The notes beneath the pieces were generated by a model. That model was not told the origin of the DNA, made no database searches, and was given only the letters and a program-made list of their open reading frames with translations. The translations under genes and the position numbers were made by a program. From Nannocystis pusilla (GTDB taxonomy: Bacteria > Myxococcota_A > Polyangia > Nannocystales > Nannocystaceae), in assembly GCF_049060185.1 (NCBI RefSeq), contig NZ_JBMEQO010000002.1: DNA of 64,000 bases, one strand, 5' to 3'. How positions within the stretch are numbered: position 1 is the first letter of the stretch; each line of letters begins with the position of its first letter. Shown in pieces: positions 28,264-64,000 of the stretch.

Positions 28264-29023
28264 TCAGAAGCGGCCGGTGAGGCTGACGAGGGCGCCGCGC
28301 GGGGTGGGGCTCATGCCGGCGGAGAAGCGGCGGCCGCGATCGTTGCGGTGGAGCAGCGGGACGAGGACGCCGATGGCGGTGCCGGCGACGGAGCCGAACA
28401 GGACGTCGGTCCAGAAGTGCTTGCCGGCCTCGACGCGCAGGACGCCGGTGGTGGCGGCGAGGCCGACGGCGACCAGCCAGGCCGGGACTGCGGCGCGGGC
28501 CCGCGGGTGACGCAGGGTGAAGAGGGTGGCCCAGGCGCTCATCATGGCGAAGGCGGTCGAGGTGTGACCTGAATAAAGGACAGGCGCGCCTCCTCGGCCT
28601 GGACGTCTCCGAGGTCGCTCTCGGGCTCGTAGCTGTAGGGCCGCGGGCGACGCACGGCGTACTTGACGAGGTTGTTGAGGCCGACGTTGACGGCGAGGAC
28701 CTCGAACAGGACGACCACGTCGCGGGCCCAGCCGCCGGCGGCGTGACGGTAGGAGCCGGGGGCGCGGCGGCCGGCGACGAGGGTGTCGGCGAGGTCGGCG
28801 ACGATCGGGGCGGCGATCGCGGTGTAGAGCAGGGCGTCGGAGGCGTGGGCGGCCGCGAGGCTCTCGTTGCCGAGGACGCGCCGATCGAGGCCGTTGATGT
28901 GGCTGCGGTCGCAGGCCTGACAGCCGGACCAGCGCATGTCGCGGGCCGCGAGATCGGTGCCGAGCCACATGACGAGGCCGAGGGCGATGACGGGGACGTC
29001 GACGGCCGGCCGCAGGCGCATGA
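28264..29023 (-). CDS. PAP2-family membrane phosphatase, with a frameshift at about 28560.
   Basis: It shows PAP2 motif 1 (KYAVRRPRPY), motif 2 (…(P)SGHTS…, reached only after a 1-nt shift, T4 read as T3) and motif 3 (RVEAGKHFWTDVLFGSVAG). The start was mapped to ATG at 29023 (MRLRPAVDVPVIALGLV…). Confidence 0.7.
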
Positions 29024-29097
29024 GGTGCGGCGGGAGGGCCGGCGGCGCGGCGGGAAGCGGCGGATCGGCGGCGGGGGTGGGGACGGGCTCGGGGGGC

Positions 29098-29690
29098 GGA
29101 GATGTCCCGGGGGACATGTCTTCCGGGACGGGGGCCGAGGTGGTCGGAGCAGCTGTCTCGTCGGAGGCGGGCGGCGGGGCGGTAGGGCCGGCTGTCCCCG
29201 AGGACATGTCTTCGCGGGTGGACGAGGGCTGGGACGATGTCCCTGGGGACAGGTGCGCGACGAGGGCCGGCGGGGCTGTGGCGGCTGTCCCGGGGGACAG
29301 GTGCTCGGAGGCGGGCGACGAGGCGGCTGGGGCCGAGGATCCAGAGGATATCCCTGGGGACAGGTTCGCGGCGAGGACCGGCGGGGAGGTGGTGGCTGTC
29401 CCGGGGGACAGATGCTCGGAGACGTGCGGCGGTGCGGCTGCGGCCGCGAGCAGGAGGGCTGGCCCTGAGGACAGGTACGCAGGGACGGGCGGGGCCGCGG
29501 ACAGGACGGATGCCCGCGGGGACAGGTGCACGGCGGCGGGCGGCGGGGCGGACGGTGTGACGGTCGGGGCCGCGGTCAGGATGGATGTCCGCGGGGACAG
29601 GTGCACGGCGGCGGGCGGCGGGGGGTCGGGGTCGGGGAAGCCGACGCGGGTGTCCTTTCGGGCATGTCACCCGAGACATGTCCCGAGGGT
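29098..29690. repeat. Array of about 10 imperfect tandem units (period ~45-90 bp), each built on the palindrome (G/A)TGTCC(C)-N2-3-GGGGACAGGTG; the first two and last units carry GGACATGTC variants.
   Basis: Units start at about 29101, 29190, 29237, 29283, 29348, 29395, 29461, 29508, 29583 and 29649. The array sits in the divergent region between the PAP2 start (29023, minus) and the next plus-strand gene (29942). Stop-free ORFs on both strands (HLSPGT…/…VPGDRC…) are a consequence of the repeats. Confidence 0.85.
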
Positions 29691-29941
29691 TCGGCGGGCC
29701 GCCAGGCGCCCAGGTCGGGGGTGCGCGCCAGTGGGTGGGCGGCCGCAGGCGGAGCGGCGAGGGCGAGGACCAGGGCCAGGGACAGGCAGCGCGACATGCT
29801 CGGTCGGACGAGTATGCCCAATCGCGGCCCGGCGGCGCCGAGGGAGATGGCTTCGGGGACAGGTGATCGCGGGCTCAAGAGCGCGTCGATCGCGCTGCGC
29901 TGGCAGAGGACGTCCGGGTCGGGCTACGTTGACGTCCAGCG

Positions 29942-46983: not shown

Positions 46984-47760
46984 CTAGGGCGCGGGGACGG
47001 GCTCGGCCCCGAGGTCGCGGGCGAGGTCGGCGAGCTCGCCGATCGGGACCTGCAGCGCGGGCAGACGGGTGATGTCGGCCCGCGCGGCCTGGGCGATCGA
47101 CTCGCTGGCGCGCATGATGAGGCCGCCGTGGGCGTCGGCGACGACGGTGTAGCCGGCCTTCCGCAGGCGGGCGAGCCGGGCCTGGGCGGCGGGGGTGAGG
47201 TCGGTGGCGGTGATGCGCAGGGAGGGCACGCGGCCGGGCCAGAGGGCGGCGAGGTAGGCGGTGATCCGCGGCGGGTAGACGACGCCGCCGGCTGTCTTTT
47301 CGTTCAGGTGGACGTCGACCAGGGCGGGGTAGCCGTGCACGTCGCAGCGGACCGCCCCGTGCAAGTGGCTGGTCCACATCGCCTCGGGGCTGACAGGCGC
47401 GGGCCACAGGCGATCGAACCACGCGGCGATGGCGTCGTAGCTGGGGAGGCGCTGGCCGCCGAGGGCGTCGCCGAGGCGCTGGACCTCGGCGCCGAACCGC
47501 TCGCCGCGCTCCTCCCGGCGCAGGCGCAGGAGGACGGCGAGGACGGCGATCGGGGCGGCGACGTACCACAGGCCGAACAGCAGCAGGCCGCCGCAGACGA
47601 TGGCGGCGAACAGGAGGCCGAGGCCGCCGTCGCGGACTTGCTGCTGGCGCCGCTCGTCGGCGTGGCGGGCCAGGAGGGCGCGACGGGCGACCGCGAGGGC
47701 GCTGGCGGGGATCCGCCCCTCGGGCTCGGGGCCGGCGGCGTCGCGGCGATCGGGGAGGAA
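46984..47760 (-). CDS. Hypothetical membrane protein; this is the protein-like C-terminal part of ORF 46984..49137, and the true start is unknown.
   Basis: …LGLLFAAIVCGGLLLFGLWYVAAPIAVLAVLL… is a TM segment within a well-formed protein-like sequence. The upstream part of the same ORF (47980-48310) is the palindromic tandem array, so whether the N-terminal CPHC…CPAC region (about 48560-48860) belongs to the same gene cannot be decided from sequence alone. Confidence 0.4.
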   Translation of the reverse strand, partial: FLPDRRDAAGPEPEGRIPASALAVARRALLARHADERRQQQVRDGGLGLLFAAIVCGGLLLFGLWYVAAPIAVLAVLLRLRREERGERFGAEVQRLGDALGGQRLPSYDAIAAWFDRLWPAPVSPEAMWTSHLHGAVRCDVHGYPALVDVHLNEKTAGGVVYPPRITAYLAALWPGRVPSLRITATDLTPAAQARLARLRKAGYTVVADAHGGLIMRASESIAQAARADITRLPALQVPIGELADLARDLGAEPVPAP

Positions 47761-48114
47761 GGAGCGAACGGCGGCGATCAGCTCCTGGGTCGCGGGGGAC
47801 GGCGGGCGGTCGGCGGGCTCGCGCACCGCGGCGACCACAAGCGGCGCCTCGGCCAGACCGCCGGGCGGGGCCGCCAGCCCGCCGTGGCGGAGGGCGTGCT
47901 GAGGCTGGCGCCGGAGCGGTTGGAGAGGATGGCCAGGAGCGAGGAGTTCGACGGGTTCACCGCGGCGCCCGGGAGGGTGTCGCTGGCGGTCGTGCGCGCG
48001 GCCGGGTCGCGGGCGAGGCTGGCCCGAGGCCAGGTGCCTGCTCGCGCGGGGCGGGCAAGGGGCCGGACAGCGCGGCGGGGTCGAAGCCGGGGGCGACCGC
48101 GGCGAGCGGGGCCG

Positions 48115-48300
48115 GCGATCTGTCCGCAGGGACAGGTGACGGGCGGAGGCTGTCCGCGAGGACAGGTGAATTCCGACTGTCCGCGGGGACAGGTGGAGAT
48201 GGCGCGTCCGCGAGGTCGAGGTTCCGGCTGTCCGATAGGGCAGGTTGGAATCGGGTGTCCGTGGGGACAGGTAGGCTGTCCGTGGGGACAGGTGCGTCGA
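48115..48300. repeat. Tight tandem array of about 7 copies (period ~20-30 bp) of the palindromic unit (C)TGTCCGNGGGGACAGGTG.
   Basis: Units lie at 48121, 48151, 48178, 48229, 48257 and 48277, plus a degenerate copy at about 48205. Each is an inverted repeat TGTCC-N5-GGACA followed by GGTG. Because of the array, the plus-strand ORF reads CPxGQV hexapeptide repeats and the minus strand HLSPRT repeats. Confidence 0.85.
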
Positions 48301-49196
48301 CGGGCAGGGACAGCGGGGCCGGCTCCGGCGCGGCGTCGTGGCCGTGGGCGGCCAGGCCCGGGGCCAGCTCGGCCGACAGGGTGCCGCGGCGGGCGTCGGC
48401 CCAGCGGCCGGGGCGGGGCCTTGCAAGGTGTCGCCGGGCTCGGGAGCGGCGAGCGGAGAAGTGCTGTCCCTCAGGACAGGTCGCACGGGGGCCGGGACGG
48501 CGGGCGGCGGGGCCGGGCCGATCGAGAGCAGGGTGGTCGGCGGGACGGGAGCGGCGAGCAGCCTGGCCGAGGGGCCGGGCTGGTGGCGGGCGTGGAGCCG
48601 CGGGCTCGGCGGCGGGGCCTCGAGGTCGGGTTCGGGGCTGACCTTCGGGACAGGTGCGCTGTGGACCAGGTCGCTGACTGCCTGCTGGATCGCCCGCTCG
48701 TAGAGGGCCAGGGCGTCGGCGACGGCCGGCGGCAAGCCGTGGGGCTGCCGGCACGCAGGGCAGTCGGCGGCGTCGCGGAGGTCGGCGAGCGAGAGCGCGT
48801 GCTGGCAATGCGGGCAGCGCAACGCGAGCGTCGGAGAGAGCACGGCGGGACCATACCGCAGAACACGGGCGGCGCACCGGCCTGCGGGCGCGGGCGTGGG
48901 CGCGCAGGCGGAGGGAGCGGCCGGGGATGACGACAGCCGGCGTCGGCGGCGAGATCGCCGAGCGGGCTCGTCGGTGGCGCGACGGTGCCGAGCGCGGTCG
49001 AGATCGCGGCCGGGCGCGTGACGAGATCGACAGGGACGGGCGGTGACGGCGGTCCGCGAGCGGAGGACGGGGCGGGACGCAGTTCGTGGCCACGGCCCGG
49101 CGGCGGCGCTCTGCGAGCGCTGGCGGCCCGGGGCCACGAATCGGTCGCAGGCGGCGCCGGGCGCGGGCGAGGATGCGCGCGGCGGCGACTCGCGGT

Positions 49197-53006: not shown

Positions 53007-53622
53007 ATGCCGGGGCGACGGATCGACGCGTGGATGTTGCTGGGGCTGCTGCTGGGCGGGTGCGACCCGGCGAAGGAGAGGAGCTGGCGGCGGTGCGGGC
53101 GGAGCTGGCGGCGACGTCGGCGCTGGTCAAGGAGCAGGGGCAGCGGATCGAGTCGCTGACGAGCGAGCTGGCGAAGGCGCGGGCCGATCGGGTCCTGTGC
53201 GAGGTCGAACGGTCTCCGCCGCATGGGGCCGGCGACGCTCCGCCAGCGCCGGCGACGGACGCTCCGCTCGCAGGAGCGGCGACGCTGACGCCGACGTGCG
53301 CCGACGGGACCTGCGTGGTGAAGCGCAGCGAGCTCGAGGCGTTCATGGCGGCGCCCCAGGCGATGGCCCGGCTGGCGCGCGTGCTCCCGGCGATGGAAGA
53401 CGGCAAGGCGGTCGGCTTCAAGCTGTTTGCGATCCGCTCCGAGTCGCCGCTGGCGCTGCTGGGTTTTAAAATGGGGACCTGGTGCGCACCCTGGCCGGGC
53501 AAGCGGTGGGGGACATGGAGGCGTTGCTGCGCGCGTACTCGCAGCTGCGCACGCTCGACCGCTGGACGGTCACAGGCACGCGCAAGAGCGGGCCGTTCGA
53601 GGTGACGATCGCGGTGCAGTGA
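53007..53622 (+). CDS. Lipoprotein with a coiled-coil region and a C-terminal PDZ-like domain (GspC/PilP-like), with two frameshifts.
   Basis: MPGRRIDAWMLLGLLLGGC is a lipoprotein signal. A coiled-coil region follows (…LAAVRAELAATSALVKEQGQRIESLTSELAKARAD…), then a PDZ-like domain (…GKAVGFKLFAIRSESPLALLGFKMGDLVRTLAGQAVGDMEALL…GPFEVTIAVQ). Confidence 0.5.
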
Positions 53623-53714
53623 AGACTGTCCGAAGGGACAGGTGCGTGCGACGGGCCGTTCGGGGTGACGATCTCGGCACCATGAGAAGACTGTCCGAAG
53701 GGACAGGTGCGTGG
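53590..53714. repeat. Tandem duplication (2 x ~62 bp) covering the 3' end and stop codon of the preceding gene; each copy ends in the palindrome GACTGTCCGAAGGGACAGGTG.
   Basis: gggccgttcgaggtgacgatcgcggtgcagtgaagactgtccgaagggacaggtgcgtg is immediately followed by gggccgttcggggtgacgatctcggcaccatgagaagactgtccgaagggacaggtgcgtg. Confidence 0.8.
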
Positions 53715-53948: not shown

Positions 53949-54400
53949 TTACATCCCGCGCCGGTAGTAGACGAGCTGCAGCGCGAGGCGGGCGAGCTCC
54001 GACAGGTACAGCGACAGCAGCAACAGGTGGGCGACCCACACCGGCTCGACCGCGACGACGAGGGCGCCGATGGCCCCGATCACGCCGGTGGCGAGGATCC
54101 AGCCGGTGCGGCTCTCTGCGCGCCCCTCGATCTCGCGGTCGCGGACGTCGGCCGGCTCGGGGCGGCCGACGAGCGCGGCGACGAGGTGACCGCCGACGAG
54201 GAGCGCCACCAGCAGCACGACTGCGACCACGAACACGCCGGCGAAGGCCGGCAAAATCGTGATACCGCGGGCCAGCATCCAGCCGGCGACGACGAAGTAG
54301 GCGCCCAGCGCGAAGGCGACGCCGATCAGCTGGATCCAGACGCTCTTCTCCTCGAACGAGGCGCTCAAGCGCGCCTCACCCGTGACAGCTCGGCTTGACA
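53949..54400 (-). CDS. DUF2975-like multi-pass membrane protein, partner of the XRE regulator.
   Basis: MSSRAVTGEARLSASFEEKSVWIQLIGVAFALGAYFVVAGWMLARGITILPAFAGVFVVAVVLLVALLVGGHLVAAL… contains about four TM helices. Gene order is the same as the Bacillus yozG-yoaS-type pairs. Confidence 0.6.
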
Positions 54401-54452
54401 TGATGTCAAAGATACGCGACACGGACACGATGTCAAGCTGGCTTGACATGAC
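54385..54452. promoter_or_regulatory. Two palindromic candidate operator sites (TTGACATGATGTCAA and TGTCAAGCTGGCTTGACA) at and upstream of the membrane/XRE operon start.
   Basis: In gcttgacatgatgtcaaagatacgcgacacggacacgatgtcaagctggcttgacatgacg, the first palindrome overlaps the ATG of the membrane protein gene. The shared half-site is TTGACA/TGTCAA. Confidence 0.55.
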
Positions 54453-54750
54453 GGGCCAGAACGTGGCGGAACACCTGGCCTGCAGGCGCTGGCGTCGATC
54501 GGGGGCGATGCGCGAGGACGCGCGGGCGCCGGAGCGTTGTGGCGGGGACCACACGGATCTGCTCCAGGTTCGCGAGCGGGCGCGGTCGAGCGCGGGGCAC
54601 CGCGGGCGAGCACGCCGCTCGCGCCGAGAAGCGCTGCTGCGCGAAGAGACCCGCGCGCCCGAGAGGCACGGGCGTCGACCTCGCATGTCTGCGAGGACAT
54701 ATACAAGGACATGTCCTTGTGGACATGTCCTGATGGACAGTGCTCGCGAC

Positions 54751-56529: not shown

Positions 56530-56708
56530 CGCCCGTTACGCTAGTCTTTTCGCGCTGCTGCTGCAACGAAGGGGCAAATGCCGCGCGCGGCCGAGGTCCG
56601 CGCGGGCAGGGTGAGGGCCTGCCGTGGCGGATGCTGTTCAGCGCCGCGCGCGCCGTCACGGACGCCGTTCGCCGCCCGTGAGGCCCGATCAGAACCGCGT
56701 GCGGCGGT

Positions 56709-57486
56709 TCAGGTGCCGATGACCGAGCCGCCGTCGACGCTCAAGATGGCGCCGTTGATGAAGCTCGACTTGTCGTCGGCCAGGAAGAGATAGGCGCGAG
56801 CGATGTCGTCGGGCAATCCGGCGCGGCCGACCGGGGTGTGCTCGATCAGCGCGTTATAAACCTTCTCGGGGATGCTCTTGACCATGTCGGTGGCGATGAA
56901 GCCCGGGGCGACGGCGTTCGCCGTGATGCCGTAGCGGCCGAGCTCGCGCGCCCATACGCGCGTCATGCCGACGACGCCGGCCTTGGCGGCGACGTAGTTG
57001 GTCTGGCCGAAGTTGCCGTACAATGCGACCACCGAGCTGGTGCTGACGATTCGCCCGTACTTCTGGGCGATCATCGTCGGCACGACCGCCTGGGTGCAGT
57101 TGAACACGCCCTTGAGGCAGACATCGAGGACGAACTGGAACTGGTCGGCGCTCATCTGTCCGACCACCTGACCGTCCTTGACCTTGACGAGCTGGCCGTC
57201 GCGGACGACGCCAGCGTTGTTGATGAGGACGTCGATCCGGCCGAACCGCTCGAGCACGGCGGCGACCCCGGCGACGCAGTCCTCGGGCTTGCTGACGTCG
57301 ACCTTGCGGGCGATGGCGACGCCGCCGGCGGCGGTGATCGCGGACACGACCTCCTCGGCTGCCTGTTCGGCCAGGTCCCACGGCCACGCCGTAGCCGGCC
57401 TCGGCGAACTTGAGAGCGGTGGCGCGGCCGATGCCGTTGCCGCCGCCGGTGACGATGGCGATCCGCGGTTGCTGGGTGCTTGTCAT
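56709..57486 (-). CDS. fabG: 3-oxoacyl-ACP reductase (FabG-like SDR), with a frameshift at about 57370.
   Basis: MTSTQQPRIAIVTGGGNGIGRATALKFAEAGYGVAV in ORF 56854.. continues into ORF 56709..57347 with the SDR catalytic region (…NFGQTNYVAAKAGVVGMTRVWARELGRYGITANAVAPGFIATDM…). It is adjacent to an ACP gene. Confidence 0.8.
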
Positions 57487-57653
57487 GCGGCGGCGAGCGT
57501 ACCGAGGGCCGCCGAGGTCGCCTGCACCAAGAGCCAGGGGAGATGTGAGCTTGCGCGGTGTCGGTGGCCGCAGCGCGCGGCTCGGGCGTCCACGGAGGAT
57601 GATGGCCGCCGCTTGTCGTCTCCAGGGCGATCCCCGTAGGATGCGCCGACCCC

Positions 57654-57941
57654 ATGACAGAGACCGCCCCGCCCGAAGCCCTGGTCCGCGAGATCAAGGA
57701 GCTCATCATCGAGGCCCTGATGCTGCAGGACATGACCCCCGAGGACATCGACCCGGAGGCTCCGCTCCTGGTCGAGGGGCTGGGCCTCGACTCGATCGAC
57801 GTGCTCGAGCTGGCGATGGCCATCGGCAAGAAGTACGGCGTCAAGACCCGCGCCGACGACGCCCAGAACCGGCACATCTTCGCCAGCGTGACCAACCTGG
57901 CCCGCTTCGTCGCTGAACAGCGCGCGCCGGCGGCGAGCTGA
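57654..57941 (+). CDS. Acyl carrier protein.
   Basis: MTETAPPEALVREIKELIIEALMLQDMTPEDIDPEAPLLVEGLGLDSIDVLELAMAIGKKYGV… carries the phosphopantetheine attachment motif GLDSID. The gene lies in a single frame. Confidence 0.85.
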   Translation: MTETAPPEALVREIKELIIEALMLQDMTPEDIDPEAPLLVEGLGLDSIDVLELAMAIGKKYGVKTRADDAQNRHIFASVTNLARFVAEQRAPAAS

Positions 57942-57999
57942 GGCCCGACATGGCGGACCCGAACGGCGAGCCGCGGCGAGCCGCGGGGTCCCGAGGTGG

Positions 58000-58598
58000 G
58001 TGCCCGCGGTGCTGCGGTCGATGGTGATCGGCGGCTATCCGCTGGTCGTGTACCTCGGCATGACGCGCTGGAGCCCGCGCACGTTGGCGCTGGTGCTGGC
58101 GGCGGCGCTGCTCCGGGGCTCTTGCTGCGCCTGCGCGAGGCCCGGCGCGAGGACCTGTGGCCGGTGCTGCGGGTGCCGCTGTCGCTGTTCGGGCTGTTCG
58201 CGGTGGCGGCGCTGTCGGGCGAGCAGCGGCTGTTCATGGCCCTGCCGGTGCTGGTCAACCTGGGACTGTTGGCCAACTTCGCCGCCAGCCTGCGCGGGCC
58301 GGTGTCGCTGGTCGAACGGTTCGCGCGCCTGCAGGAGCCCGACCTGCCGCCCGGCGGGCCGGCGTACTGCCGGACCTGGACCAAGATCTGGTGCGGCTTC
58401 TTCGTCGCCAACGCGCTCGTCAGCGCCGGCCTGGCGCTGTGGGCCCCGGTGGCCTGGTGGACGCTCTACACCGGACTTTTGGCCTACCTGCTGATCGGGG
58501 TAATGTTCACCGTCGAGTACGTCGTCCGCAAGGCGACCTTCCGTCGCTTCGGCGACGGTCTGCCCGACCGCCTGCTCCGTCGACTGCTCCGCGCATGA
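58000..58598 (+). CDS. Small integral membrane protein of the pigment-type cluster, with a frameshift at about 58110.
   Basis: ORF 58000.. (MPAVLRSMVIGGYPLVVYLGMTRWSPRTLALVLAAALL) joins ORF 57996..58598 (…LWPVLRVPLSLFGLFAVAALSGEQRLFMALPVLVNLGLLANFAASL…WAPVAWWTLYTGLLAYLLIGVMFTVEYVVRK…). Several TM helices are present. Confidence 0.55.
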
Positions 58599-60010
58599 AG
58601 TCGTTCGTCCCGCTCGTCCACACCGATCCCGTGGCGCTCGTCGCCGTCGGCGAGGCCGGCGCACGCACGGCCGGCGAGCTCATGCGCGACGCGAGGGCCG
58701 TCGCGGCGCGGCTGCCGGCGCCCGCGCCAGGCAGCGAGGTGCTGGTGGTGTGCGGCGACCGCTACCACCTGGCGGTGACGACCCTGGCGGCGTGGCTGCG
58801 CGGCCACGCGGTCGCGCTGCCGCCCAACGCCCAGCCGGCGGCCGTGCGCGAGCTGGCCGGGCGGCCGTCGGTGGTCGCGCTGCTGCACGACTCCGACCTG
58901 GCCGACGCGCAGGACGTCCGCGAGTGGTTGGAAGGACATGTTCCAGGGACATGGCCGATCCGACATGGCCCGAAGCGCTGGCGGCCGATCGCCGGCTGGC
59001 GGTCGTGTACACCTCGGGCAGCACCGGCGATCACCAGCCGTGCGCCAAGACGGCCGCGCAGCTGCTCGGCGAGGCGCAGGCGCTGGCGGCCACGTTCGCC
59101 CTGCGGGCCGGGGAGGTGGCGCTGGCGACGGTGCCGCCGTACCACCTCTACGGGCTGCTGTTCGGGATCCTGGCGCCGCTGGCCGCGGGGCGGCGTTCGC
59201 CCGCGAGACGCCGCTGCACGCCGAGACGGTGGCCCGGGCGGCGCGGCAGGTGGAGGCGACGGTGCTGGTGAGCACGCCGGCGCACCTGCGCGGCCTGACT
59301 GTGCTGACGCGCGGCGACCTGCCGCCGCTGTCGCGGGTGTTCTCGTCGGGCGCGCCGCTGCCGCGGGCGACCGCGGACGAGCTGCTGACGAAGCTGGGCC
59401 TGCAGGTGACCGAGGTGTACGGTTCGTCGGAGACCGGCGGGATCGGCTGGCGGCGGCACGAGGATGTTTTAAAGACATGTCCCCGGAGCCAGCCTGGACG
59501 CCGCTGCCGGGAGTGACTGTGGAGGTGGCGGCAGAGGGCCGGCTGCTGCTGCGCTCGCCGTTCCTGGCCCCGGACGCGCCGGTGCCGTACCCGTGCGAGG
59601 ACCGCGTCGAGGTCGACGCGCGCGGCGGGTTCCACCTGCGCGGGCGGCTCGATGGGGTGGTGAAGATCGCCGGCAAGCGGGTGGCGGTGGCCGAGGTCGA
59701 GCAGCGCCTGCTGGCGCTGCCGGCGGTGGCCGACGCCGCGGTGGTGGCGGTCGAGTCGCCGGGCGCCCGCGGGCACGAGCTGGTGGCCGCAGTGGTCGCG
59801 CGCGAGGCCGGGCGCGACGCCGGCGAGCTGGTGGCCGAGCTGCGGCGGGCGCTGCTGCCGTGGTTCGACCAGGTGGTGGTGCCGCGGCGGATCAAGGTGG
59901 TGCCGGCGCTGCCGCGCGAGCCGAGCGGCAAGCTGACGCGGCGCAAGCTGCACGCGCTGCTCGGGCTCGCGGGCGAAGAGGAAGTCGCGGCGGGTGGCCC
60001 GAGGGACATG
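58595..60010 (+). CDS. AMP-dependent synthetase/ligase (acyl-ACP/CoA ligase-like), with a frameshift at about 58940; in this assembly no stop codon separates it from the following dehydratase domain.
   Basis: The N-terminus MKSFVPLVHTDPVALVAV… is followed by the AMP-binding motif LAVVYTSGSTGDHQPCAK and conserved A-domain core motifs (…YGSSETGGIGW…, …GKLTRRKL). The frames of ORF 58157..60616 and ORF 58750..59271 are joined by a 1-nt shift inside a GGACATG-rich stretch. Confidence 0.75.
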
Positions 60011-60129
60011 TCCGTAAGTTCGGCGAGTGACGCGCCGAGCGCGGGATCGGGACCGGGTGACGCACGGGACATGTCCGCCGGGACAGAGGGCCCGGGCGCG
60101 TCGGTGAGTGGCCCCAGGGACATGTCCGC

Positions 60130-60505
60130 AGGGGCAGAGGGCCCGGGCGCGTCGGCGTTCGCGCTGCGCGGGCATACGCGGCGCGACGAGGGCGGCGCGT
60201 CGGTGCACGAGGTCGAGGTGGGGGTGCCGGTCGACCTGGCGTTCTTCCGCGGGCACTTCGACGCGCTGCCGGTGCTGCCGGGGGTGGCGCAGCTGACCGC
60301 TCTGGTAGTGCCGCAGGTGGCGGCGCTGCGGCCGGAGCTGGGGCCGCTGCGGCGGGCGGCGCGGCTGAAGTTCACCCGGCCGATCGCGCCGGGCGACGCC
60401 CTGCTGCTGCGGCTCGAGGTCCGGGGACTCAGGTCCGCTTCTCCCTGGCGCGGGCCGGCGAGGTGGTCACGGCGGGGGCGCTCGAGTACGAGGCGCGCGG
60501 AGGCT
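60130..60505 (+). CDS. Hot-dog-fold (FabA/FabZ-like) dehydratase domain or protein, with a frameshift at about 60435.
   Basis: …VHEVEVGVPVDLAFFRGHFDALPVLPGVAQLTALVVPQVAAL…RLKFTRPIAPGDALLLRLEV… matches the 3-hydroxyacyl-ACP dehydratase hot-dog signature. The true C-terminus (…FSLARAGEVVTAGALEYEARGG*) is reached after a 1-nt shift. Confidence 0.6.
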
Positions 60506-60635
60506 GAGGCGGTGCGTATGGCCGAAGGGGCAGGTCGTTGCCAGGTGTCCGGGAGGACAGGTCGTCCGCCGACGGGCGGCGGGCCGGATGCGCCCCGCGT
60601 CGGGAGGCGGGCATGAGCGCGGACGGGGGCAGGAC

Positions 60636-61425
60636 ATGTCCCGAGGGACAGGTGAAGCCGGGGCCGCGGCGTTCCGGCCGTGCGCGCTGATCCCGACCTT
60701 CGACAACCCGCGGACGGTGCGGGACGTGGTGCTGCGGGTCAAGGCGCACCTGCCCGACGTGGTGGTCATCGACGACGGCTCGGGGCCGGAGGGCCGCGCC
60801 GCGGTCGAGGCGATCGGGGCGGAGGGGCTGGCGCACGTGCGGCGACGGCCGCAAAACGGCGGCAAGGGGCGGCGGTCAAGACCGGGTTCCAGTTCGCCCA
60901 CGAGCTCGGCTACACCCACGCGCTGCAGGTCGACGCCGACGGGCAACATGACCTCAAGGACATCCCGCAATCCTCGCCACCGCGCGCGAGCGGCCGAACG
61001 CGCTGATCCTCGGGGCGCCGGTGTACGACGCGTCGGCGCCGAAGGGGCGGCTCATCGCCCGCAAGATCACGCTGTTCTGGACCAACTTCGAGGCCGGTCG
61101 CGGGGTCATCACCGACCCGATGTGCGGCTTCCGCGTGTACCCGCTGGTGCCCGCGCTGGCGCTCGGGCGCACCGGCGACCGCATGGACTTCGACATCGAG
61201 ATCGCGGTCCGCCTGGTGTGGGCCGGGGTGCCGGTGATCAACCTGCCCACCAAGGTCCGCTACATCGGCCGCGACGAGGGCGGGGTGTCGCACTTCCGCG
61301 TGTTCGGCGACAACGTCAAGATCTCGTGGCTGCACACCCGGCTGTCGTTCCAGCGGGTGATGGTGCGCCCGTGGATCAACCTCTACCGCCGCCTGCGCCG
61401 CCCGGCGCTGCCGGCCGGCCGCTGA
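60636..61425 (+). CDS. Family-2 glycosyltransferase, with a frameshift at about 60870.
   Basis: …CALIPTFDNPRTVRDVVLRVKAHLPDVVVIDDGSGPEGRAAVE… and (other frame) …HALQVDADGQHDL… then …ITDPMCGFRVYPL… are GT2 (DxD, Q/RxxRW-like) hallmarks. The candidate start ATG lies at the centre of a GGACATGTCC palindrome. Confidence 0.7.
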
Positions 61426-61458
61426 CCGGGCTGCGCGAGAGGACAGGTTCGATCGGCC

Positions 61459-62502
61459 ATGGCGCATCAGGCAGGTACGAAGGGACATGTCCCGGAGGAC
61501 GACCCGAGCGGGGCCGCGGCGAGCGAGCGCGGGGCGGGCGTGCCGGCGACCACCGCGGGTCAGGGGAGCGAGCGTGAGGCGGGCGGCGCCGCGGCGGTCC
61601 CGGCGGTCGAGGGCGACCGGGCGTGGATGACCCGGCCCGAACGCGGGACGGTGATCGGGATCAAGGCGACGCTGCTGTTCTGCCGGGTGTTCGGCCGCCG
61701 CGGGGCGGGTGCTGCTGGCGGTGATCACCTTCTACTACGCGCTGTTCGCCGGGGCGGCGCGGCGGGCCTCGCAGGACTACCTGCGGCGGATCGGCCAGCC
61801 ACACGGCTTTGGGCCAGCTGGCGCCACATCTACACGTTCGCCCGCTGCGCGCTCGACCGCGTGTTCCTGGTCCGCGGCGAGACCTCGCGGTTCCGCATCA
61901 CGCACACGGGCATCGAGCACCTGCGGGCGCTGCAGCAGCAGGGCCGAGGGGCGCTGCTGCTCGGGGCCCACCTCGGCTCGTTCGAGGCGATGCGGGCCAG
62001 CAGCGTCGACAAGCGGCTGCCGATCCACATCCTCGCGTACTGGCAGAACGCGAAGATGATCAACGACTTCTTGCGCACGGTCGGGGCCGACTTCGACGTG
62101 CGCGTGATCCCGATCGACCCGCGCGACACCAGCTACATCCTGGCCGCCAAGGAGGCGATCGAGCGCGGCGAGCTGGTGGCGGTGCTCGGCGACCGGGTCG
62201 GGGTCAACGAGAAGACCTGCACGGCCGAGTTCCTGGGCGCTCCGGCGCGCTTCCCGACCGGGCCCTACACCCTGGCGGCGCTGCTAAAGTGCCCGATCTA
62301 TTTGACTTTCGGGCTCTACCACGGGCCTGACCGCTACGATCTGTATTGCGAGCCCTTCGCCGAACAATTAGAACTCCCCAGAGGCCGCCGCGAGGCCGCC
62401 ACCGCCGCCCATGTCCAGCGCTACGCCGAACGCCTCGAGCACTACTGCCGCCTCGCGCCGCTCAACTGGTTCAACTTCTACGAGTTCTGGAGGGCAGAGT
62501 GA
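61459..62502 (+). CDS. LpxL/HtrB-like lysophospholipid acyltransferase (LPLAT), with a frameshift at about 61700-61800.
   Basis: …FRITHTGIEHLRALQQQGRGALLLGAHLGSFEAMR… (with the HxxxxD-like region) continues to …VAVLGDRVGVNEK…FLGAPARFPTGPYTLAALLKCPIYLTFGLY…. This is the typical acyltransferase of aryl-polyene/flexirubin-type clusters. Confidence 0.75.
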   Translation: MAHQAGTKGHVPEDDPSGAAASERGAGVPATTAGQGSEREAGGAAAVPAVEGDRAWMTRPERGTVIGIKATLLFCRVFGRRGAGAAGGDHLLLRAVRRGGAAGLAGLPAADRPATRLWASWRHIYTFARCALDRVFLVRGETSRFRITHTGIEHLRALQQQGRGALLLGAHLGSFEAMRASSVDKRLPIHILAYWQNAKMINDFLRTVGADFDVRVIPIDPRDTSYILAAKEAIERGELVAVLGDRVGVNEKTCTAEFLGAPARFPTGPYTLAALLKCPIYLTFGLYHGPDRYDLYCEPFAEQLELPRGRREAATAAHVQRYAERLEHYCRLAPLNWFNFYEFWRAE

Positions 62503-64000
62503 GTAGCGCGCGCGTCCTCATCGTGGGGCCCGGCGGGATCGGCCTCGACGACGTGGTTCAGCTGGCCGAAGGGACAGCTTTCCCGGCGCTCGACGACGCC
62601 CCGGAGTACCGGGCCCTGCTGGGCCGCGGCGCCGGCCACCTGGCGCGCCGGCTGGCCGCGGGCGAGGTCGTGTACGGGGTCACGACCGGGTTCGGCGACT
62701 CGTGCGAGACGAGCGTGCCCGACGAGCACGTGGCGGCGATGCCGATCAACCTGATGCGCTTCCACGGCTGCGGCACCGGGCGGATCCTCGACGAGGTCGA
62801 GGCGGCCGCGGTGGTGGCGGTGCGGCTGGTGGCGCTGGCGCGCGGCTGGTCGGGCGTGCGCGTCGAGGTGCTCGAGCGCCTGTGCGATCTGCTGCGGCAC
62901 CGTCTGCTGCCGCGGATCCCCGCCGAGGGCTCGGTCGGGGCCAGCGGCGACCTGACGCCGCTGTCGTACGTGGTGGCGGCGCTGGTCGGCGAGCGCGAGG
63001 TCTGGTTCAAGGGACAGGTCGCGCCCGCGGCCGAGGCGCTGCGCGAGGCCGGGATCCCGCCGCTCGTGCTGCAGCCCAAGGAGAGCCTGGCGCTGATGAA
63101 CGGGACCAGCGTCATGGTCGGGCTCGGTTGCCTGGCGGTCGCGCGCGCGCAGCGGCTGGCGCGCCTGTGTGCGGCGCTGACGGCGATGGGCAGCGACGTG
63201 CTCGGCGGCAACCCCGCTCACTTCGACGACCGCATCTTCGCCGCCAAGCCGCACCCGGGCCAGAGGGCCGTGGCGGGGTGGATCCGCGAAGATATCGAGT
63301 TCCCGCGGCCGGCAGCCCCGCCCGCATCCAGGACCGCTACTCCATCCGCTGCGCCCCGCACGTCATCGGGGTCCTCGTCGACGCGCTACCCTGGGTCCGG
63401 CAGTGGCTCGAGGTCGAGATCGTCGGCGCCAACGACAACCCGCTGGTCGACCCGGAGACCGGCGAGGTGCTGCACGGCGGCAACTTCTACGGCGGTCACG
63501 CCTGCTTCGCGCTCGACTCGCTCAAGACGGCGGTGGCCAACCTCGCCGACCTGGTCGATCGCCAGATCGCGCTGGTCTGCAACCCGGACACGAACGCAGG
63601 CCTGCCGGCCAACCTGGTCGGGCGCACGGGCCCCGATCGTGCGGCGCACCACGGCTTCAAGGCGATGCAGATCTCGGCCTCGGCGCTGGCGGCCGAGGCG
63701 TTGAAGCTGACGATGCCGGCCAGCGTCTTCAGCCGAAGCACCGAATGCCACAACCAGGACAAGGTGAGCATGGGCACGATCGCGGCGCGCGACTGCCTCC
63801 GGATCGTCGAGCTGACCGAGACGGTCGCCGCGATCGGGCTGCTCACCATGTGCCAGGCGGTCGACCTGCGCGCGGGGCACAACGTCCACGCGCGGGCGCG
63901 CACGCTGCACGCGGCGGTGCGCGGCGTCATCCCGATGGTCGACGCCGACCGCCGCCAGGACCGGGACATCGCCGCGGTGCTGACGCTGATGCGCGCGAAC
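62499..64000 (+). CDS. Aromatic amino acid ammonia-lyase (HAL/PAL/TAL family, MIO-dependent), partial at the window end, with a frameshift at about 63300.
   Basis: The GTG start overlaps the upstream stop. It carries the MIO-forming motif GSVGASGDLTPLSYV and a conserved lyase body (…GTSVMVGLGCLA…; after the shift …YSIRCAPHVIGVL…NDNPLVDPETGEVLHGGNFYGGH…NQDKVSMG…). Confidence 0.8.

What the first reader, a model, noticed from the sequence alone, without database searches (positions are those of the whole stretch)
58595..64000. Aryl-polyene/flexirubin-like lipid-pigment gene cluster with an ammonia-lyase starter module, densely punctuated by GGACATGTCC sites
Gene content and order across 56.7-64.0 kb is FabG, ACP, membrane protein, AMP-ligase, hot-dog dehydratase, GT2, LpxL-like acyltransferase, MIO ammonia-lyase. 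The ketosynthases would lie beyond the window. This is the conserved core of aryl-polyene / xanthomonadin / flexirubin-type loci, with a TAL/HAL-like enzyme plausibly supplying a cinnamate-type starter. Two unusual points stand out. In this assembly the ligase and dehydratase have no stop between them, and three GGGACATGTCC copies lie in the junction. The palindrome also overlaps the predicted ATG of the GT2 gene and lies within the first codons of the acyltransferase ORF. This would fit a cluster-wide cis-element, perhaps a shared operator or an RNA-processing site.
Basis: partly seen in the sequence, partly recalled or inferred. Interest (0 to 1): 0.55.

Follow-up and report, generated by a model that had tools for sequence, protein, structure and literature searches.

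The report
Split aryl-polyene cluster plus genus-wide hairpin repeat
The region is the Nannocystis copy of the known aryl-polyene pigment-lipid gene block, without linked chain-extending enzymes, and the GGACATGTCC "punctuation" is a short hairpin repeat scattered through Nannocystis genomes, not a control site specific to this cluster.

Summary
Gene order, the ligase-dehydratase reading frame without a stop, and the palindrome positions are all as described. GGACATGTCC occurs 9 times against 0.07 expected.

The window comes from a Nannocystis genome (95-97% identical to sequenced strains) and carries about one single-base indel error per 650 bp.

The genes are colinear with apeE-apeN of the known aryl-polyene (APE) cluster, with an extra LpxL-type acyltransferase and an MIO ammonia-lyase. 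The ligase-dehydratase fusion is real and old: 35 of 36 related loci have it.

The predicted ketosynthases are not downstream. In six Nannocystis species the block ends with thioesterase, LolA, MMPL and DUF3261, followed by unrelated genes. Other Nannocystaceae have two ketosynthases there.

The palindrome is not a cluster element. It belongs to a half-site family (TGTCC-N4-GGACA, 21 copies against 0.05 expected; 14-bp tandem units) found across the window. It is about 170-fold denser in Nannocystis than in other genera and absent from their orthologous clusters. Copies sit just after stop codons, in spacers between genes, and in frame within disordered protein linkers, where copy number varies between strains.

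It behaves like a REP-type repeat. The cluster is ordinary; the repeat family appears undescribed.

The parts
56709..57486 (-). FabG-type short-chain reductase, divergent from the operon. One frameshift error near 57380.
   Evidence: tblastn gives 99-100% identity to the intact 259-aa adh_short/KR gene of the relatives.
57654..57941 (+). Acyl carrier protein (ApeE/F position).
   Evidence: PF00550 at 37.7 bits; NF006617 at 106.8 bits, above its cutoff of 70. Identical protein found in 4 public assemblies.
57952..58598 (+). Membrane protein of about 200-216 aa in the ApeG position. One frameshift near 58100.
   Evidence: No Pfam or NCBIfam hit. Conserved next to the ACP in many Myxococcota loci. 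ApeG equivalence rests on position only.
58595..60507 (+). Fused adenylating ligase (ApeH-like, to about 59990), variable linker (about 59990-60150) and hot-dog dehydratase (ApeI-like, about 60150-60507). Four frameshift errors in the window, near 58945, 59190, 59472 and 60425.
   Evidence: PF00501, PF13193, PF22818 (26.5 bits, cutoff 28.5) and PF07977. Best NCBIfam model is 4-coumarate-CoA ligase TIGR02372, below cutoff. Intact 638-684 aa fusion in relatives. Fused in 35 of 36 loci.
58934..58975 (.). Degenerate three-unit, 14-bp-period motif array inside the ligase gene, read as G-H-V-S-G-D-M-A-D-P-T.
   Evidence: It lies in a variable surface-loop position. The distant relative L013 carries three ELSPGT copies at the same spot.
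59460..59486 (.). Two-unit degenerate array inside the ligase gene (GATGTTTTAA-AGACATGTCC), read as H-E-D-V-L-K-D-M-S-P-E.
   Evidence: It is a 6-7 aa insertion relative to all non-Nannocystis orthologues.
60004..60127 (.). Three GGGACATGTCC copies in the ligase-dehydratase linker, read as R-D-M-S-x-G-T. The last two are part of a repeat of about 51 bp.
   Evidence: Copy number differs between strains and species: 3 in the window, 6 in L001, none in N. radixulma or other genera.
60520..60570 (.). Degenerate hairpin units 13-60 nt after the dehydratase stop (60505-60507), including TGTCC-GGGA-GGACAGGTC at 60546-60564.
   Evidence: The number of units in this spacer varies among Nannocystis species, with spacer lengths of roughly 20, 130 and 210 nt.
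60632..60653 (.). GGACATGTCC-CGAG-GGACAGGT. The central ATG (GTG in some strains) is the GT2 start codon.
60636..61425 (+). Family-2 glycosyltransferase (ApeJ position). Two frameshift errors.
   Evidence: PF00535 at 49.5 bits. 92-97% identical to the intact genes of relatives.
61441..61492 (.). GGACAGGT 16 nt after the GT2 stop, and GGACATGTCC at 61483.
   Evidence: Homology of the acyltransferase to other genera starts only at residue 45-56, so this segment is either a spacer or a genus-specific disordered N-terminus.
61459..62502 (+). LpxL/lysophospholipid-type acyltransferase (ApeD-like). The true start may be the ATG near 61621. Two frameshift errors.
   Evidence: PF03279 at 45.3 bits.
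62499..64000 (+). MIO aromatic amino-acid ammonia-lyase. Its GTG start overlaps the acyltransferase stop. It is cut by the window end and has one frameshift near 63315.
   Evidence: PF00221 at 524 bits. No NCBIfam equivalog cutoff is reached: BagA/FevW TAL 460 of 1000, HAL 411 of 524, FlxA 315 of 700. ASG triad intact. It has F-H where RsTAL has H89-L90.
54693..54740 (.). Reference copy of the repeat outside the cluster: four 14-bp units, 13 nt after the stop of a minus-strand 593-aa gene.
   Evidence: TRF reports period 14, 2.4 copies. The RNA fold is -33.1 kcal/mol with z = -6.9.
53627..53708 (.). Two CTGTCC-GAAG-GGACAGGTG hairpins. The first starts 5 nt after a stop codon. Both lie in a 65-bp tandem duplication.
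48121..48655 (.). Seven motif copies inside the N-terminal low-complexity part of a minus-strand gene of unknown function.
29098..29864 (.). At least nine motif copies in the Pro/Ala-rich linker of a minus-strand secreted PAP2-like protein, read as HLSPGT or DMSPGT.

Best explanation
Two independent features overlap here.

**(A) The gene block.** 56.7-64 kb is the 5' two-thirds of the Nannocystis version of the aryl-polyene (APE) lipid pathway block.
- What it encodes:
  - An MIO lyase that makes an aryl-acrylic acid. The F-H switch residues point to cinnamate from Phe rather than p-coumarate. This step is inferred.
  - A ligase-dehydratase fusion that adenylates the acid and loads it on the adjacent ACP. 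This is inferred from the ApeH precedent.
  - A GT2 and an LpxL-type acyltransferase that attach the acyl product to a membrane lipid.
- What lies just past the window: thioesterase, LolA-like, MMPL and DUF3261 proteins that release and export it. Relatives show this directly.
- What is missing: the chain-extending ketosynthases are not linked in Nannocystis. They must be supplied from elsewhere in the genome, or the product is not a long polyene.

**(B) The palindromes.** GGACATGTCC is one face of a Nannocystis-specific short repeat.
- Structure:
  - It is built from GGACA/TGTCC half-sites in 14-bp units (GGACA[T/G]GTCC-N4).
  - Two adjacent units form a stem-loop of up to 10 bp.
- Distribution:
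  - The repeat accumulates wherever sequence constraint is low.
  - Those places are directly after stop codons, spacers between genes and between convergent genes, and, in frame, disordered protein loops, linkers and termini.
  - There it expands and contracts by tandem duplication.
- Role:
  - It most likely acts, if at all, as a REP-like 3'-end or intercistronic RNA hairpin.
  - It is not an operator of this cluster.
  - The copies inside the cluster are mostly single degenerate units.
For: **(A) Gene block**
- Intact orthologues and the downstream 4HBT, LolA_3, MMPL and DUF3261 genes come.
- The organism is Nannocystis, at 92-98% MMPL identity.
- The block is colinear in about 60 Myxococcota and Planctomycetota loci. 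In 32 of 85 sequences (84 loci plus the window), a ketosynthase lies close by, mostly as a ketosynthase-FabG-ketosynthase set as in apeO-R.
- Enhygromyxa APE clusters are published, and Ape gene roles are described in PMC8253772.
- The fusion is conserved in 35 of 36 loci.
- The dehydratase keeps the G-H-F...P-G-V active-site motif.
- The lyase subfamily keeps ASG and R-[F/Y/M]-H-G-C-G in 42 of 42 loci. Its best solved relative is RsTAL, and the H89F mutant scores highest.

**(B) Repeat**
- Enrichment: TGTCC-N4-GGACA 21 against 0.05 expected; GGACAGGT 27 against 1.6. ACATGTCC and GGACATGT are the most over-represented 8-mers in the window.
- Genus restriction: 56 sites in 153 kb of Nannocystis against 2 in 918 kb of other genera with GC above 0.68. 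The same cluster elsewhere has none.
- Motif-bearing peptides are Nannocystis-only insertions with variable copy number.
- All five intergenic motif clusters in L001 lie 7-39 nt after a stop codon.
- In 113 metagenomic contigs with arrays, 60 sites fall in the first 50 nt after stop codons against 0-3 in each 50-nt bin upstream of the stop and 14 to 2, falling with distance, downstream. They are often between convergent genes and often have identical N4 loops within an array.
- Reading frames used in coding copies: 55 in the [DE][ML]S.GT frame, 45 in the V[PL].D frame, and 8 in the Cys-Pro frame. This is what DNA-level insertion filtered by protein tolerance would give.
- The array at 54.7 kb folds at -33 kcal/mol with z = -6.9.
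Against: **(A) Gene block**
- No condensing enzyme lies within 56 kb upstream or 10 kb past MMPL. A defining APE component is therefore missing at this locus.
- No Nannocystis protein appeared among the 120 best homologues (58% identity or more) of a Nannocystaceae ApeR-like ketosynthase.
- The ApeI-like Pfam score of the window copy is just under its cutoff.
- Lyase substrate and product are untested.

**(B) Repeat**
- In-cluster copies do not fold better than shuffled sequence (z from -0.9 to +0.1).
- No RAYT-type transposase was seen in 2.4 Mb of loci. No conserved GTAG flank is evident.
- Only about 150 kb of non-redundant Nannocystis DNA was sampled without selection. The after-stop statistic comes largely from contigs that were selected for carrying arrays.
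- In the unselected sample only 4 of 59 confident ORFs have an exact site within 60 nt of the stop.
- GGACAGGT is 25:2 in favour of the + strand, and this is unexplained.
Confidence: 0.7

Rival explanations
1. One reading: the palindromes are a cis-element dedicated to this cluster, either a shared operator for a dimeric regulator or a cluster-specific RNA-processing site that coordinates its genes.
For: Five of the nine exact 10-mers lie within 58.9-61.5 kb. Three spacers between genes in the operon (after the dehydratase, GT2 and thioesterase genes) carry a copy, and one copy supplies the GT2 start codon.
Against: The same motif family occurs at seven or more unrelated places in the window. 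None lies in the FabG/ACP divergent promoter region. It is absent from the orthologous cluster in every other genus. Copy number and position differ between close species. In-cluster hairpins are no more stable than shuffled controls.
Confidence: 0.05
2. The repeat is selected at the protein level. A recurrent [D/E/H]-[M/L]-S-x-G-T peptide in disordered linkers would serve as a modification, cleavage or binding site, and the DNA palindrome would be a by-product.
For: Most in-frame copies in this window read DMSxGT or HLSPGT: the ligase linker, the PAP2 linker, the unknown protein at 48 kb and the GT2 N-terminus. The Cys-Pro frame is avoided.
Against: About 60-80% of sites lie outside confident ORFs, many directly after stop codons or between convergent genes. 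A second frame (V-P-x-D) is used almost as often (45 against 55). The DNA palindrome and the 14-bp period, which is not a multiple of 3, are conserved where the peptide is not.
Confidence: 0.08
3. The motif is a DNA-level site for an abundant genus-specific DNA-binding or DNA-modifying protein. Candidates are a nucleoid protein, or a repair or methylation system as proposed for the cyanobacterial HIP1 palindrome. It would be maintained by selection or biased repair rather than acting as an RNA hairpin or a mobile repeat.
For: The 5-4-5 inverted repeat of 14 bp is the size of a dimeric helix-turn-helix site. The motif is genus-restricted with very high over-representation. No transposase was found.
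Against: Tandem 14-bp arrays with identical loops point to duplication rather than independent convergence on a site. Tight placement after stop codons is more typical of transcript-level elements. Copies are clustered rather than evenly spread as HIP1 is.
Confidence: 0.15
4. Artefact: the palindromes, the frameshifts or the gene fusion come from a poor assembly.
For: The window has about one indel per 650 bp, and two ligase frameshifts lie next to motif copies.
Against: The motif copies, the fusion and the linker repeats are present in at least ten independent Nannocystis assemblies and in many metagenomic contigs. Only the single-base frameshifts are assembly errors.
Confidence: 0.02

Closest known systems
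Aryl-polyene (APE) gene cluster of E. coli CFT073, Vibrio fischeri and Xenorhabdus doucetiae (apeA-R), and its published homologues in Enhygromyxa and Plesiocystis
   Same: Same families in the same order as apeE-apeN: ACP, small membrane protein, adenylating ligase, ApeI-type dehydratase, GT2, thioesterase, LolA-like, MMPL/RND and DUF3261. An ApeD-type acyltransferase is also present. Related myxobacterial loci with the same block also carry the apeO-R-like ketosynthase/FabG/ketosynthase set.
   Different: No ketosynthase, chain-length factor, ApeP or ApeQ is linked in Nannocystis. The ligase and dehydratase are one polypeptide. An MIO lyase and the acyltransferase sit between GT2 and the thioesterase. 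There is one ACP rather than two. The starter is probably an aryl-acrylate made in the cluster rather than 4-hydroxybenzoate from chorismate. This last point is inferred.
Flexirubin cluster (FlxA tyrosine ammonia-lyase plus DarA/DarB) of Bacteroidota
   Same: An MIO lyase inside an APE-related cluster supplies the aromatic starter.
   Different: The FlxA equivalog model is not reached: 315 bits against a cutoff of 700. No DarB/FabH-type condensing enzyme is present. The phylum and gene order differ.
Rhodobacter sphaeroides tyrosine ammonia-lyase (PDB 2O6Y; H89F mutant 2O78)
   Same: It is the best solved-structure relative of the lyase, at E = 9e-72. The MIO triad and overall alignment are conserved.
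   Different: The selectivity position His89-Leu90 is Phe-His here, and [F/Y/M]-His across the whole cluster-linked subfamily. From published work on RsTAL, recalled from memory, Phe at that position favours phenylalanine.
REP/BIME elements of Enterobacteria and Pseudomonas
   Same: Short palindromic units, very numerous and lineage-specific. They are placed just after stop codons and between convergent genes, clustered in arrays, and able to form RNA stem-loops.
   Different: The unit is only 14 bp. There is no GTAG flank, and no RAYT transposase was seen in the DNA sampled. Many copies are translated in frame inside genes.
Rickettsia palindromic elements (RPE) and mycobacterial MIRU repeats
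   Same: Like RPEs, copies sit in frame within protein-coding genes at tolerant positions. Like MIRUs, tandem units occupy spacers between genes in operons, vary in number between strains, and can overlap the stop or start codons of the flanking genes.
   Different: The unit is much shorter (14 bp against 40-150 bp) and unrelated in sequence. This comparison rests on my own knowledge of those elements and not on a test run here.

Membership tests
APE (aryl-polyene) biosynthetic gene cluster | Dedicated ACP next to an adenylating acyl-ACP synthetase (ApeE/F and ApeH) | tested here: met
   PF00550 and NF006617 for the ACP; PF00501 and PF13193 for the ligase. Direct loading of the ACP by the ligase is not testable here.
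APE (aryl-polyene) biosynthetic gene cluster | ApeI-type hot-dog dehydratase | tested here: met
   PF22818 ApeI-like scores 26.5 bits in the error-repaired window protein, against a cutoff of 28.5. It is recorded as a hit at E of 1e-5 or better in all four intact relatives. The active-site motif GHF..P.LPGV is present. The score is borderline.
APE (aryl-polyene) biosynthetic gene cluster | Attachment and export genes: GT2 (ApeJ), acyltransferase (ApeD), thioesterase (ApeK), LolA-like (ApeL), MMPL/RND (ApeM), DUF3261 (ApeN) | tested here: met
   GT2 and Lip_A_acyltrans are in the window. 4HBT, LolA_3, MMPL and DUF3261 follow directly downstream in relatives L001-L003.
APE (aryl-polyene) biosynthetic gene cluster | Cluster-encoded elongation enzymes: ketosynthase plus chain-length factor (ApeO/ApeC), ketosynthase ApeR, reductase ApeQ, dehydratase ApeP | tested here: not met
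   There is no FabF-like or FabH-like tblastn hit in the 64-kb window or in any Nannocystis locus reaching 10 kb past MMPL, whereas 32 other loci have them. Downstream genes in N. punicea are beta-lactamase family, VWA and ALK_LTK_GRD. Only a divergent FabG is adjacent. Ketosynthases elsewhere in the genome were not excluded.
APE (aryl-polyene) biosynthetic gene cluster | Yellow aryl-polyene lipid product | not testable with these tools
   This needs extraction and LC-MS of wild type against a knockout.
Flexirubin-type cluster | FlxA-type tyrosine ammonia-lyase and DarA/DarB dialkylresorcinol genes | tested here: not met
   NF053541 FlxA scores 315 bits against a cutoff of 700. No FabH/DarB-like hit was found.
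Histidine ammonia-lyase (HutH) | Reaches the hutH equivalog score; Ser-His at the substrate switch | tested here: not met
   TIGR01225 scores 404.6 against 539 and NF006871 scores 411.5 against 524. The switch is Phe-His. The gene sits in a lipid cluster and not with hut genes.
REP/BIME elements | Numerous lineage-specific short palindromes located after stop codons or between convergent genes, often in arrays | tested here: met
   The caveat is that only about 150 kb of unselected Nannocystis DNA was available, and the large sample was selected for arrays.
REP/BIME elements | Association with a RAYT (Y1/IS200-like) transposase and a conserved GTAG-type flank | tested here: inconclusive
   tblastn with an E. 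coli RAYT sequence recalled from memory found nothing in 2.4 Mb of loci. No GTAG-type flank stood out when sites were inspected, though the position matrix did show flank bias. Whole genomes could not be scanned.
REP/BIME elements | Strictly extragenic | tested here: not met
   Copies are translated in frame in the ligase, its linker, a PAP2-like protein and an unknown protein.
   Sites are spread over the window and absent from orthologous clusters of other genera of equal GC content.
HIP1-type highly iterated palindrome | Single perfect palindrome spread fairly evenly through coding and non-coding DNA | tested here: not met
   Copies are clustered in arrays and in low-constraint segments. 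Conserved coding sequence is largely free of them.

The most novel reading that the evidence does not exclude
Nannocystis harbours an undescribed and still active family of 14-bp-unit palindromic repeats with two features. First, it marks gene 3' ends and spacers between genes, as REP elements do. Second, it routinely colonises protein-coding DNA in frame, creating strain-variable D-M-S-x-G-T linker repeats. Examples are the 3 to 6 copies in the ligase-dehydratase linker and the nine or more in a secreted phosphatase. Separately, the clade containing Nannocystis keeps an APE-derived initiation, attachment and export block under strong conservation without linked ketosynthases. That block may make a cinnamoyl-type outer-membrane lipid rather than a classical aryl polyene.
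Probability: 0.35. Interest if true: 0.55.

Novelty: new variant of a known kind. Interest (0 to 1): 0.4.

Why it matters
**For natural-product mining.** In Nannocystis and its nearest relatives the widespread APE block is split. A locus of this kind carries no APE-type ketosynthase, the feature that (from memory) antiSMASH's arylpolyene rule depends on, so it may be missed. The ligase-dehydratase fusion and a distinct MIO lyase subfamily (F/Y/M-His switch) are conserved features of the myxobacterial version and worth testing biochemically.

**For genome biology.** The palindrome is a cautionary case. A strikingly enriched motif inside a cluster turned out to be a genus-wide repeat.

**The repeat itself.**
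- It is a tidy, easily searchable system for asking how REP-like hairpins arise without an obvious transposase.
- It could show whether such hairpins act at transcript 3' ends in a 72% GC organism. No canonical terminator was found in the region examined.
- It could show how repeats invade disordered protein segments and generate length polymorphism.

**For annotation.** Start codons and N-termini called inside these repeats (GT2, the acyltransferase, LolA) should be treated with care.

Tried and rejected
- **Rfam scan of the whole window:** no family matched.
- **Terminator and promoter scan of 45-64 kb:** no U-tract terminator at the hairpins.
- **RAYT transposase probe against 2.4 Mb of loci:** nothing found. 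The probe sequence was recalled from memory, so this negative is weak.
- **Homologue search with a Nannocystaceae ApeR-like ketosynthase, to find an unlinked Nannocystis copy:**
  - None of the best 120 hits (58% identity or more) came from an 11-13 Mb contig or carried a Nannocystis name.
  - The list is truncated, so the result is inconclusive.
  - I ran no further search on ApeO, because it would have the same limit.
- **PDB sequence search with the ligase-dehydratase fusion:** only generic adenylating enzymes.
- **Literature searches:** Nannocystis with palindrome, repetitive or intergenic terms, and REP with myxobacteria, found no description of the repeat.
- **Viral contig scan for the array:** a single hit inside apparent coding sequence, so no sign of phage origin.
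- **GC3-based gene calling on the window:** crippled by the frameshift errors. I used the gene calls of relatives instead.
- **Pseudogenes:** the frameshifts hit every gene at homopolymers while close relatives are intact, so I read them as sequencing errors and not gene decay.
- **A translation-start signal:** only GT2, and possibly LolA, use the motif ATG. The association with stop codons is far stronger.
- **A KOPS/Chi-like polar motif:** this was prompted by the 25:2 strand bias of GGACAGGT. About half of those copies come from local repeats in two genes, and the core is palindromic, so this is left unexplained.

Full report

Yes.
- GGACATGTCC occurs 9 times in the 64-kb window against 0.07 expected from dinucleotide-preserving shuffles.
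- Five copies lie in the finding, at 60004, 60067, 60118, 60632 and 61483.
- The first three are each preceded by G and lie between the ligase and dehydratase domains.
- The fourth contains the ATG (60636) that starts the GT2 gene. In relative L003 the called GT2 start is exactly that ATG.
- The fifth is codon 9 of the 61459 ORF.

Profile searches confirm the gene list:
- ACP: PF00550, and NF006617 above its cutoff.
- AMP-binding and AMP-binding_C, followed in the same frame by ApeI-like/FabA hot-dog domains.
- GT2, Lip_A_acyltrans and Lyase_aromatic (524 bits, ASG triad present).
- A FabG on the opposite strand upstream.

**2. Source and quality of the sequence**
- The ACP protein is found unchanged in four public assemblies. 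A scan with the downstream MMPL protein names them as Nannocystis: N. pusilla, N. exedens, N. punicea, N. bainbridge and N. radixulma, at 92-98% protein identity.
- The window is 95-97% identical at the DNA level to loci L001-L004 but identical to none.
- Relative to them it has single-base gaps, mostly in homopolymers. These split FabG, the membrane protein, the ligase (three times), the dehydratase, GT2 (twice), the acyltransferase (twice) and the lyase into different frames.
- The relatives have intact genes. I therefore read these as sequencing errors and not as gene decay.

**3. The ligase-dehydratase fusion**
- The absence of a stop is not an error. All four close relatives encode a single protein of 638-684 aa.
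- Across 36 loci where both domains were found, 35 have them in one ORF. These include other Nannocystaceae, Polyangia, Sandaracinaceae and Planctomycetota.
- Only the linker is peculiar to Nannocystis. It is 75-306 nt there, against 21-162 nt in other loci where the ligase match runs to its C-terminus.

**4. What the cluster is**
- In the relatives the operon continues past the window with a 4HBT thioesterase, a LolA-like protein, an MMPL transporter and DUF3261.
- The order is ACP, membrane protein, ligase, dehydratase, GT2, thioesterase, LolA-like, RND/MMPL, DUF3261. That is the order of apeE to apeN in the E. coli aryl-polyene cluster. Gene roles there are described in PMC8253772.
- The same block occurs in about 60 of the fetched loci.
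- In 32 of the 85 sequences searched (84 loci plus the window), a ketosynthase lies within 10 kb, mostly as a ketosynthase-FabG-ketosynthase set like apeO-R. These include Enhygromyxa salina, a genus whose APE clusters were described as closely resembling those of E. coli and Vibrio (PMC6226438).
- The window therefore holds a true homologue of part of the APE system.

**5. What is missing**
They are not there.
- No FabF-type or FabH-type sequence is detectable in the whole window (56 kb upstream of the cluster), nor in any Nannocystis locus extending 10 kb past MMPL.
- In N. punicea the genes after DUF3261 are a beta-lactamase-family protein, unknowns, a VWA protein and an ALK_LTK_GRD protein.
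- The same architecture without ketosynthases is shared by a group of related MAG loci: L012, L013, L015-L019, L025, L049 and L065.
- A homologue search with a Nannocystaceae ApeR-like ketosynthase returned no Nannocystis protein among the 120 best hits, all at 58% identity or more. That is suggestive but truncated.
- A published antiSMASH table lists two arylpolyene regions in N. exedens (PMC4902002). APE-type ketosynthases therefore probably exist elsewhere in the genome.
- The dehydratase domain keeps its active-site motif, which argues that some chain extension still feeds it.
- My reading is a split pathway. Initiation, lipid attachment and export are encoded here, and elongation is encoded elsewhere. 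A shorter, non-polyene aryl-acyl product is a minority alternative.

**6. The lyase**
- It reaches no NCBIfam equivalog cutoff: BagA/FevW TAL 460 of 1000, HAL 411 of 524, FlxA 315 of 700.
- Its best solved relatives are Rhodobacter sphaeroides TAL and the tyrosine aminomutase SgTAM.
- At the RsTAL His89-Leu90 selectivity position it has Phe-His. The top PDB hit is in fact the H89F mutant.
- All 42 cluster-linked lyases have [F/Y/M]-His-Gly-Cys-Gly there and an intact ASG.
- From published work on RsTAL, which I recall rather than tested, Phe at this position favours phenylalanine. A cinnamate starter is therefore the better guess.
- The ligase's best model, 4-coumarate-CoA ligase TIGR02372, is below cutoff but consistent with an aryl-acrylate substrate.
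- Flexirubin-type membership is not supported.

**7. The palindrome is part of a larger repeat family**
- ACATGTCC, GGACATGT and GACATGTC are the most over-represented 8-mers in the window, and GGACAGGT is close behind.
- The common structure is a pair of half-sites: TGTCC-N4-GGACA occurs 21 times against 0.05 expected, and GGACAGGT 27 times against 1.6.
- GGACATGTCC is what appears where two 14-bp units abut (GGACA[T/G]GTCC-N4). TRF reports the period-14 array at 54707-54739.
- About half of all GGACA pentamers in the window have TGTCC exactly nine bases upstream.
- Two adjacent units can pair into a 10-bp stem. The array at 54.7 kb folds at -33.1 kcal/mol with z = -6.9.

**8. The repeat is not specific to the cluster**
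- Copies occur at 12.7, 29.1-29.9, 45.5, 48.1-48.7, 52.0, 53.6 and 54.7 kb as well as in the cluster.
- The FabG/ACP promoter region has none.
- Every Nannocystis locus carries copies, including the two more distant MAGs L012 and L013. The orthologous clusters of all other genera, at equal GC content, have essentially none.
- The counts are 56 sites in 153 kb against 2 in 918 kb, roughly 170-fold.

**9. Where the copies sit**
- In relative L001, which has gene calls, all five intergenic motif clusters lie 7-39 nt after a stop codon. These follow the M16 peptidase, two unknown genes, the ligase-dehydratase and the thioesterase.
- A metagenome scan for a two-unit array found 113 contigs, mostly 69-77% GC.
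- In those contigs plus the window, 60 sites fall in the first 50 nt after the stop of a confident ORF, against 0-3 in each 50-nt bin upstream of the stop and 14 to 2, falling with distance, downstream.
- These sites are often between convergent genes, and an array often has the same N4 loop in every unit. That points to tandem duplication of the 14-bp unit.
- This sample was selected for arrays. In unselected Nannocystis DNA only 4 of 59 confident ORFs have an exact site within 60 nt of the stop. The rule is therefore "intergenic copies sit right after stops", not "every gene has one".

**10. Copies inside genes**
- Alignment of the ligase-dehydratase proteins shows that every motif-bearing peptide is a Nannocystis-only insertion at a variable position:
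  - G-H-V-S-G-D-M-A-D in a surface loop, where L013 instead has three ELSPGT copies.
  - R-D-M-S-P-E after the conserved GIGWRR.
  - R-D-M-S-A-G-T-E repeats in the linker: 3 in the window, 6 in L001, 0 in N. radixulma.
- A secreted PAP2-like protein at 28.3-29.9 kb has nine or more HLSPGT or DMSPGT copies in its Pro/Ala-rich linker. An unknown protein at 48 kb has seven.
- Across 108 coding sites the [DE][ML]S.GT frame (55) and the V[PL].D frame (45) are both common, and the Cys-Pro frame is rare (8).
- That pattern, together with the many non-coding copies, fits a DNA-level repeat filtered by what proteins tolerate. It does not fit a selected peptide.

**11. Inside the cluster**
- The spacer between the dehydratase and GT2 genes consists of these units. 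Its length differs among species: roughly 20 nt in N. exedens, N. bainbridge and N. radixulma, 130 nt in pusilla-like strains and 210 nt in N. punicea.
- The GT2 start is the motif's central ATG or GTG in most strains.
- The copy at 61483 lies in a segment that has no homology outside Nannocystis and varies in length. It is either a spacer or a disordered N-terminus.
- These in-cluster copies are mostly single degenerate units and fold no better than shuffled sequence, with z from -0.9 to +0.1.

**12. Mechanism and comparison**
- The behaviour is closest to REP/BIME elements: placement after stop codons and between convergent genes, arrays and stem-loops.
- It also shares the in-frame habit of Rickettsia RPEs and the intercistronic variable-number-repeat behaviour of mycobacterial MIRUs. 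Those comparisons come from my own knowledge.
- It fails two REP features. It is not strictly extragenic. No RAYT transposase or GTAG flank was found, although only 2.4 Mb could be checked and the probe was recalled from memory.
- No Rfam family matches and no canonical terminator coincides with the sites.
- I found no description of the repeat in the searchable literature.
- The most likely role, if any, is as 3'-end or intercistronic RNA hairpins affecting transcript stability, termination or translation of the upstream gene. This is inferred and not shown.
- A DNA-binding-site explanation remains open.
- The 25:2 strand bias of GGACAGGT is unexplained.

**13. Verdict**
- The cluster is a member of the known APE system, in a split, lyase-bearing, fusion-bearing myxobacterial variant.
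- The palindromes are a genus-wide repeat, not a cluster-specific signal.
- Interest is moderate. The cluster is largely ordinary. The repeat family and the conserved block without ketosynthases are the parts worth following up.

Noticed in passing
window 56700-64000, and the window generally: About one single-base indel per 650 bp relative to 95-97% identical Nannocystis assemblies, mostly in homopolymer runs. These frameshift nearly every gene. The pattern looks like an unpolished long-read assembly. Relative L002/L006 (N. pusilla Na p29) shows similar breaks in GT2 and the acyltransferase.
   Followed up: partly
window 28264-29878 (- strand): A secreted PAP2-type phosphatase (KxxxxxxRP, SGH and SRxxxxxHxxxD-like motifs by eye). 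It has a signal peptide and a long Pro/Ala/Ser-rich linker containing at least nine copies of the repeat, read as HLSPGT or DMSPGT. The window copy has a frameshift.
   Followed up: partly
window 47654-48712 (- strand): The N-terminal approximately 190 residues of a protein of about 630 aa with no Pfam hit carry seven motif copies, partly as a 27-bp-period tandem repeat at 48150-48215.
   Followed up: partly
window 53589-53713: A 65-bp tandem duplication copies the last codons, the stop codon and the following CTGTCC-GAAG-GGACAG hairpin of a + strand gene. This suggests that the hairpins promote local duplication.
   Followed up: partly
window 54394-54450: Inverted repeats (TTGACATGATGTCAA, then GATGTCAA...TTGACATGA) overlap the only sigma-70-like promoter match in 45-64 kb. 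They lie upstream of a minus-strand operon encoding a small membrane protein and an HTH_3 regulator. This is probably that regulator's operator and is unrelated to the GGACA repeat.
   Followed up: no
window 7963-8060: Seven copies of a 15-bp-period repeat containing CAGCAACA. It is among the most over-represented 8-mers in the window.
   Followed up: no
window-wide; GGACAGGT sites listed: GGACAGGT is on the + strand 25 times and on the - strand twice, regardless of gene orientation. About half the copies come from local repeats in two minus-strand genes. The rest of the bias is unexplained. The window has positive GC skew from about 10 kb onward.
   Followed up: partly
window 62499-64000 and the lyase genes of loci L001-L084: The cluster-linked MIO lyases form a distinct subfamily with R-[F/Y/M]-H-G-C-G at the TAL/PAL selectivity switch (34 F-H, 6 Y-H, 2 M-H). 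No NCBIfam equivalog covers them.
   Followed up: partly
loci L014, L020-L022, L024, L028 compared with L001-L019, L025, L049, L065: There are two architectures of the same block among Nannocystaceae and relatives. One has adjacent ketosynthase-FabG-ketosynthase but no detectable thioesterase or small membrane protein. The other has both of those but no linked ketosynthase.
   Followed up: partly
L085 8925-8948 (IMG/VR contig IMGVR_UViG_3300005675_000065): The only viral-collection contig with a two-unit GGACATGTCC array (66% GC). The array lies inside what looks like coding sequence. No other motif copies are on the stretch.
   Followed up: no
L132, L140 and L197 (metagenomic contigs): In a few contigs the motif array after a stop codon is itself followed by a canonical GC-rich hairpin with an A/T tract. 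Where a classical terminator exists, the array is therefore a separate element upstream of it.
   Followed up: no
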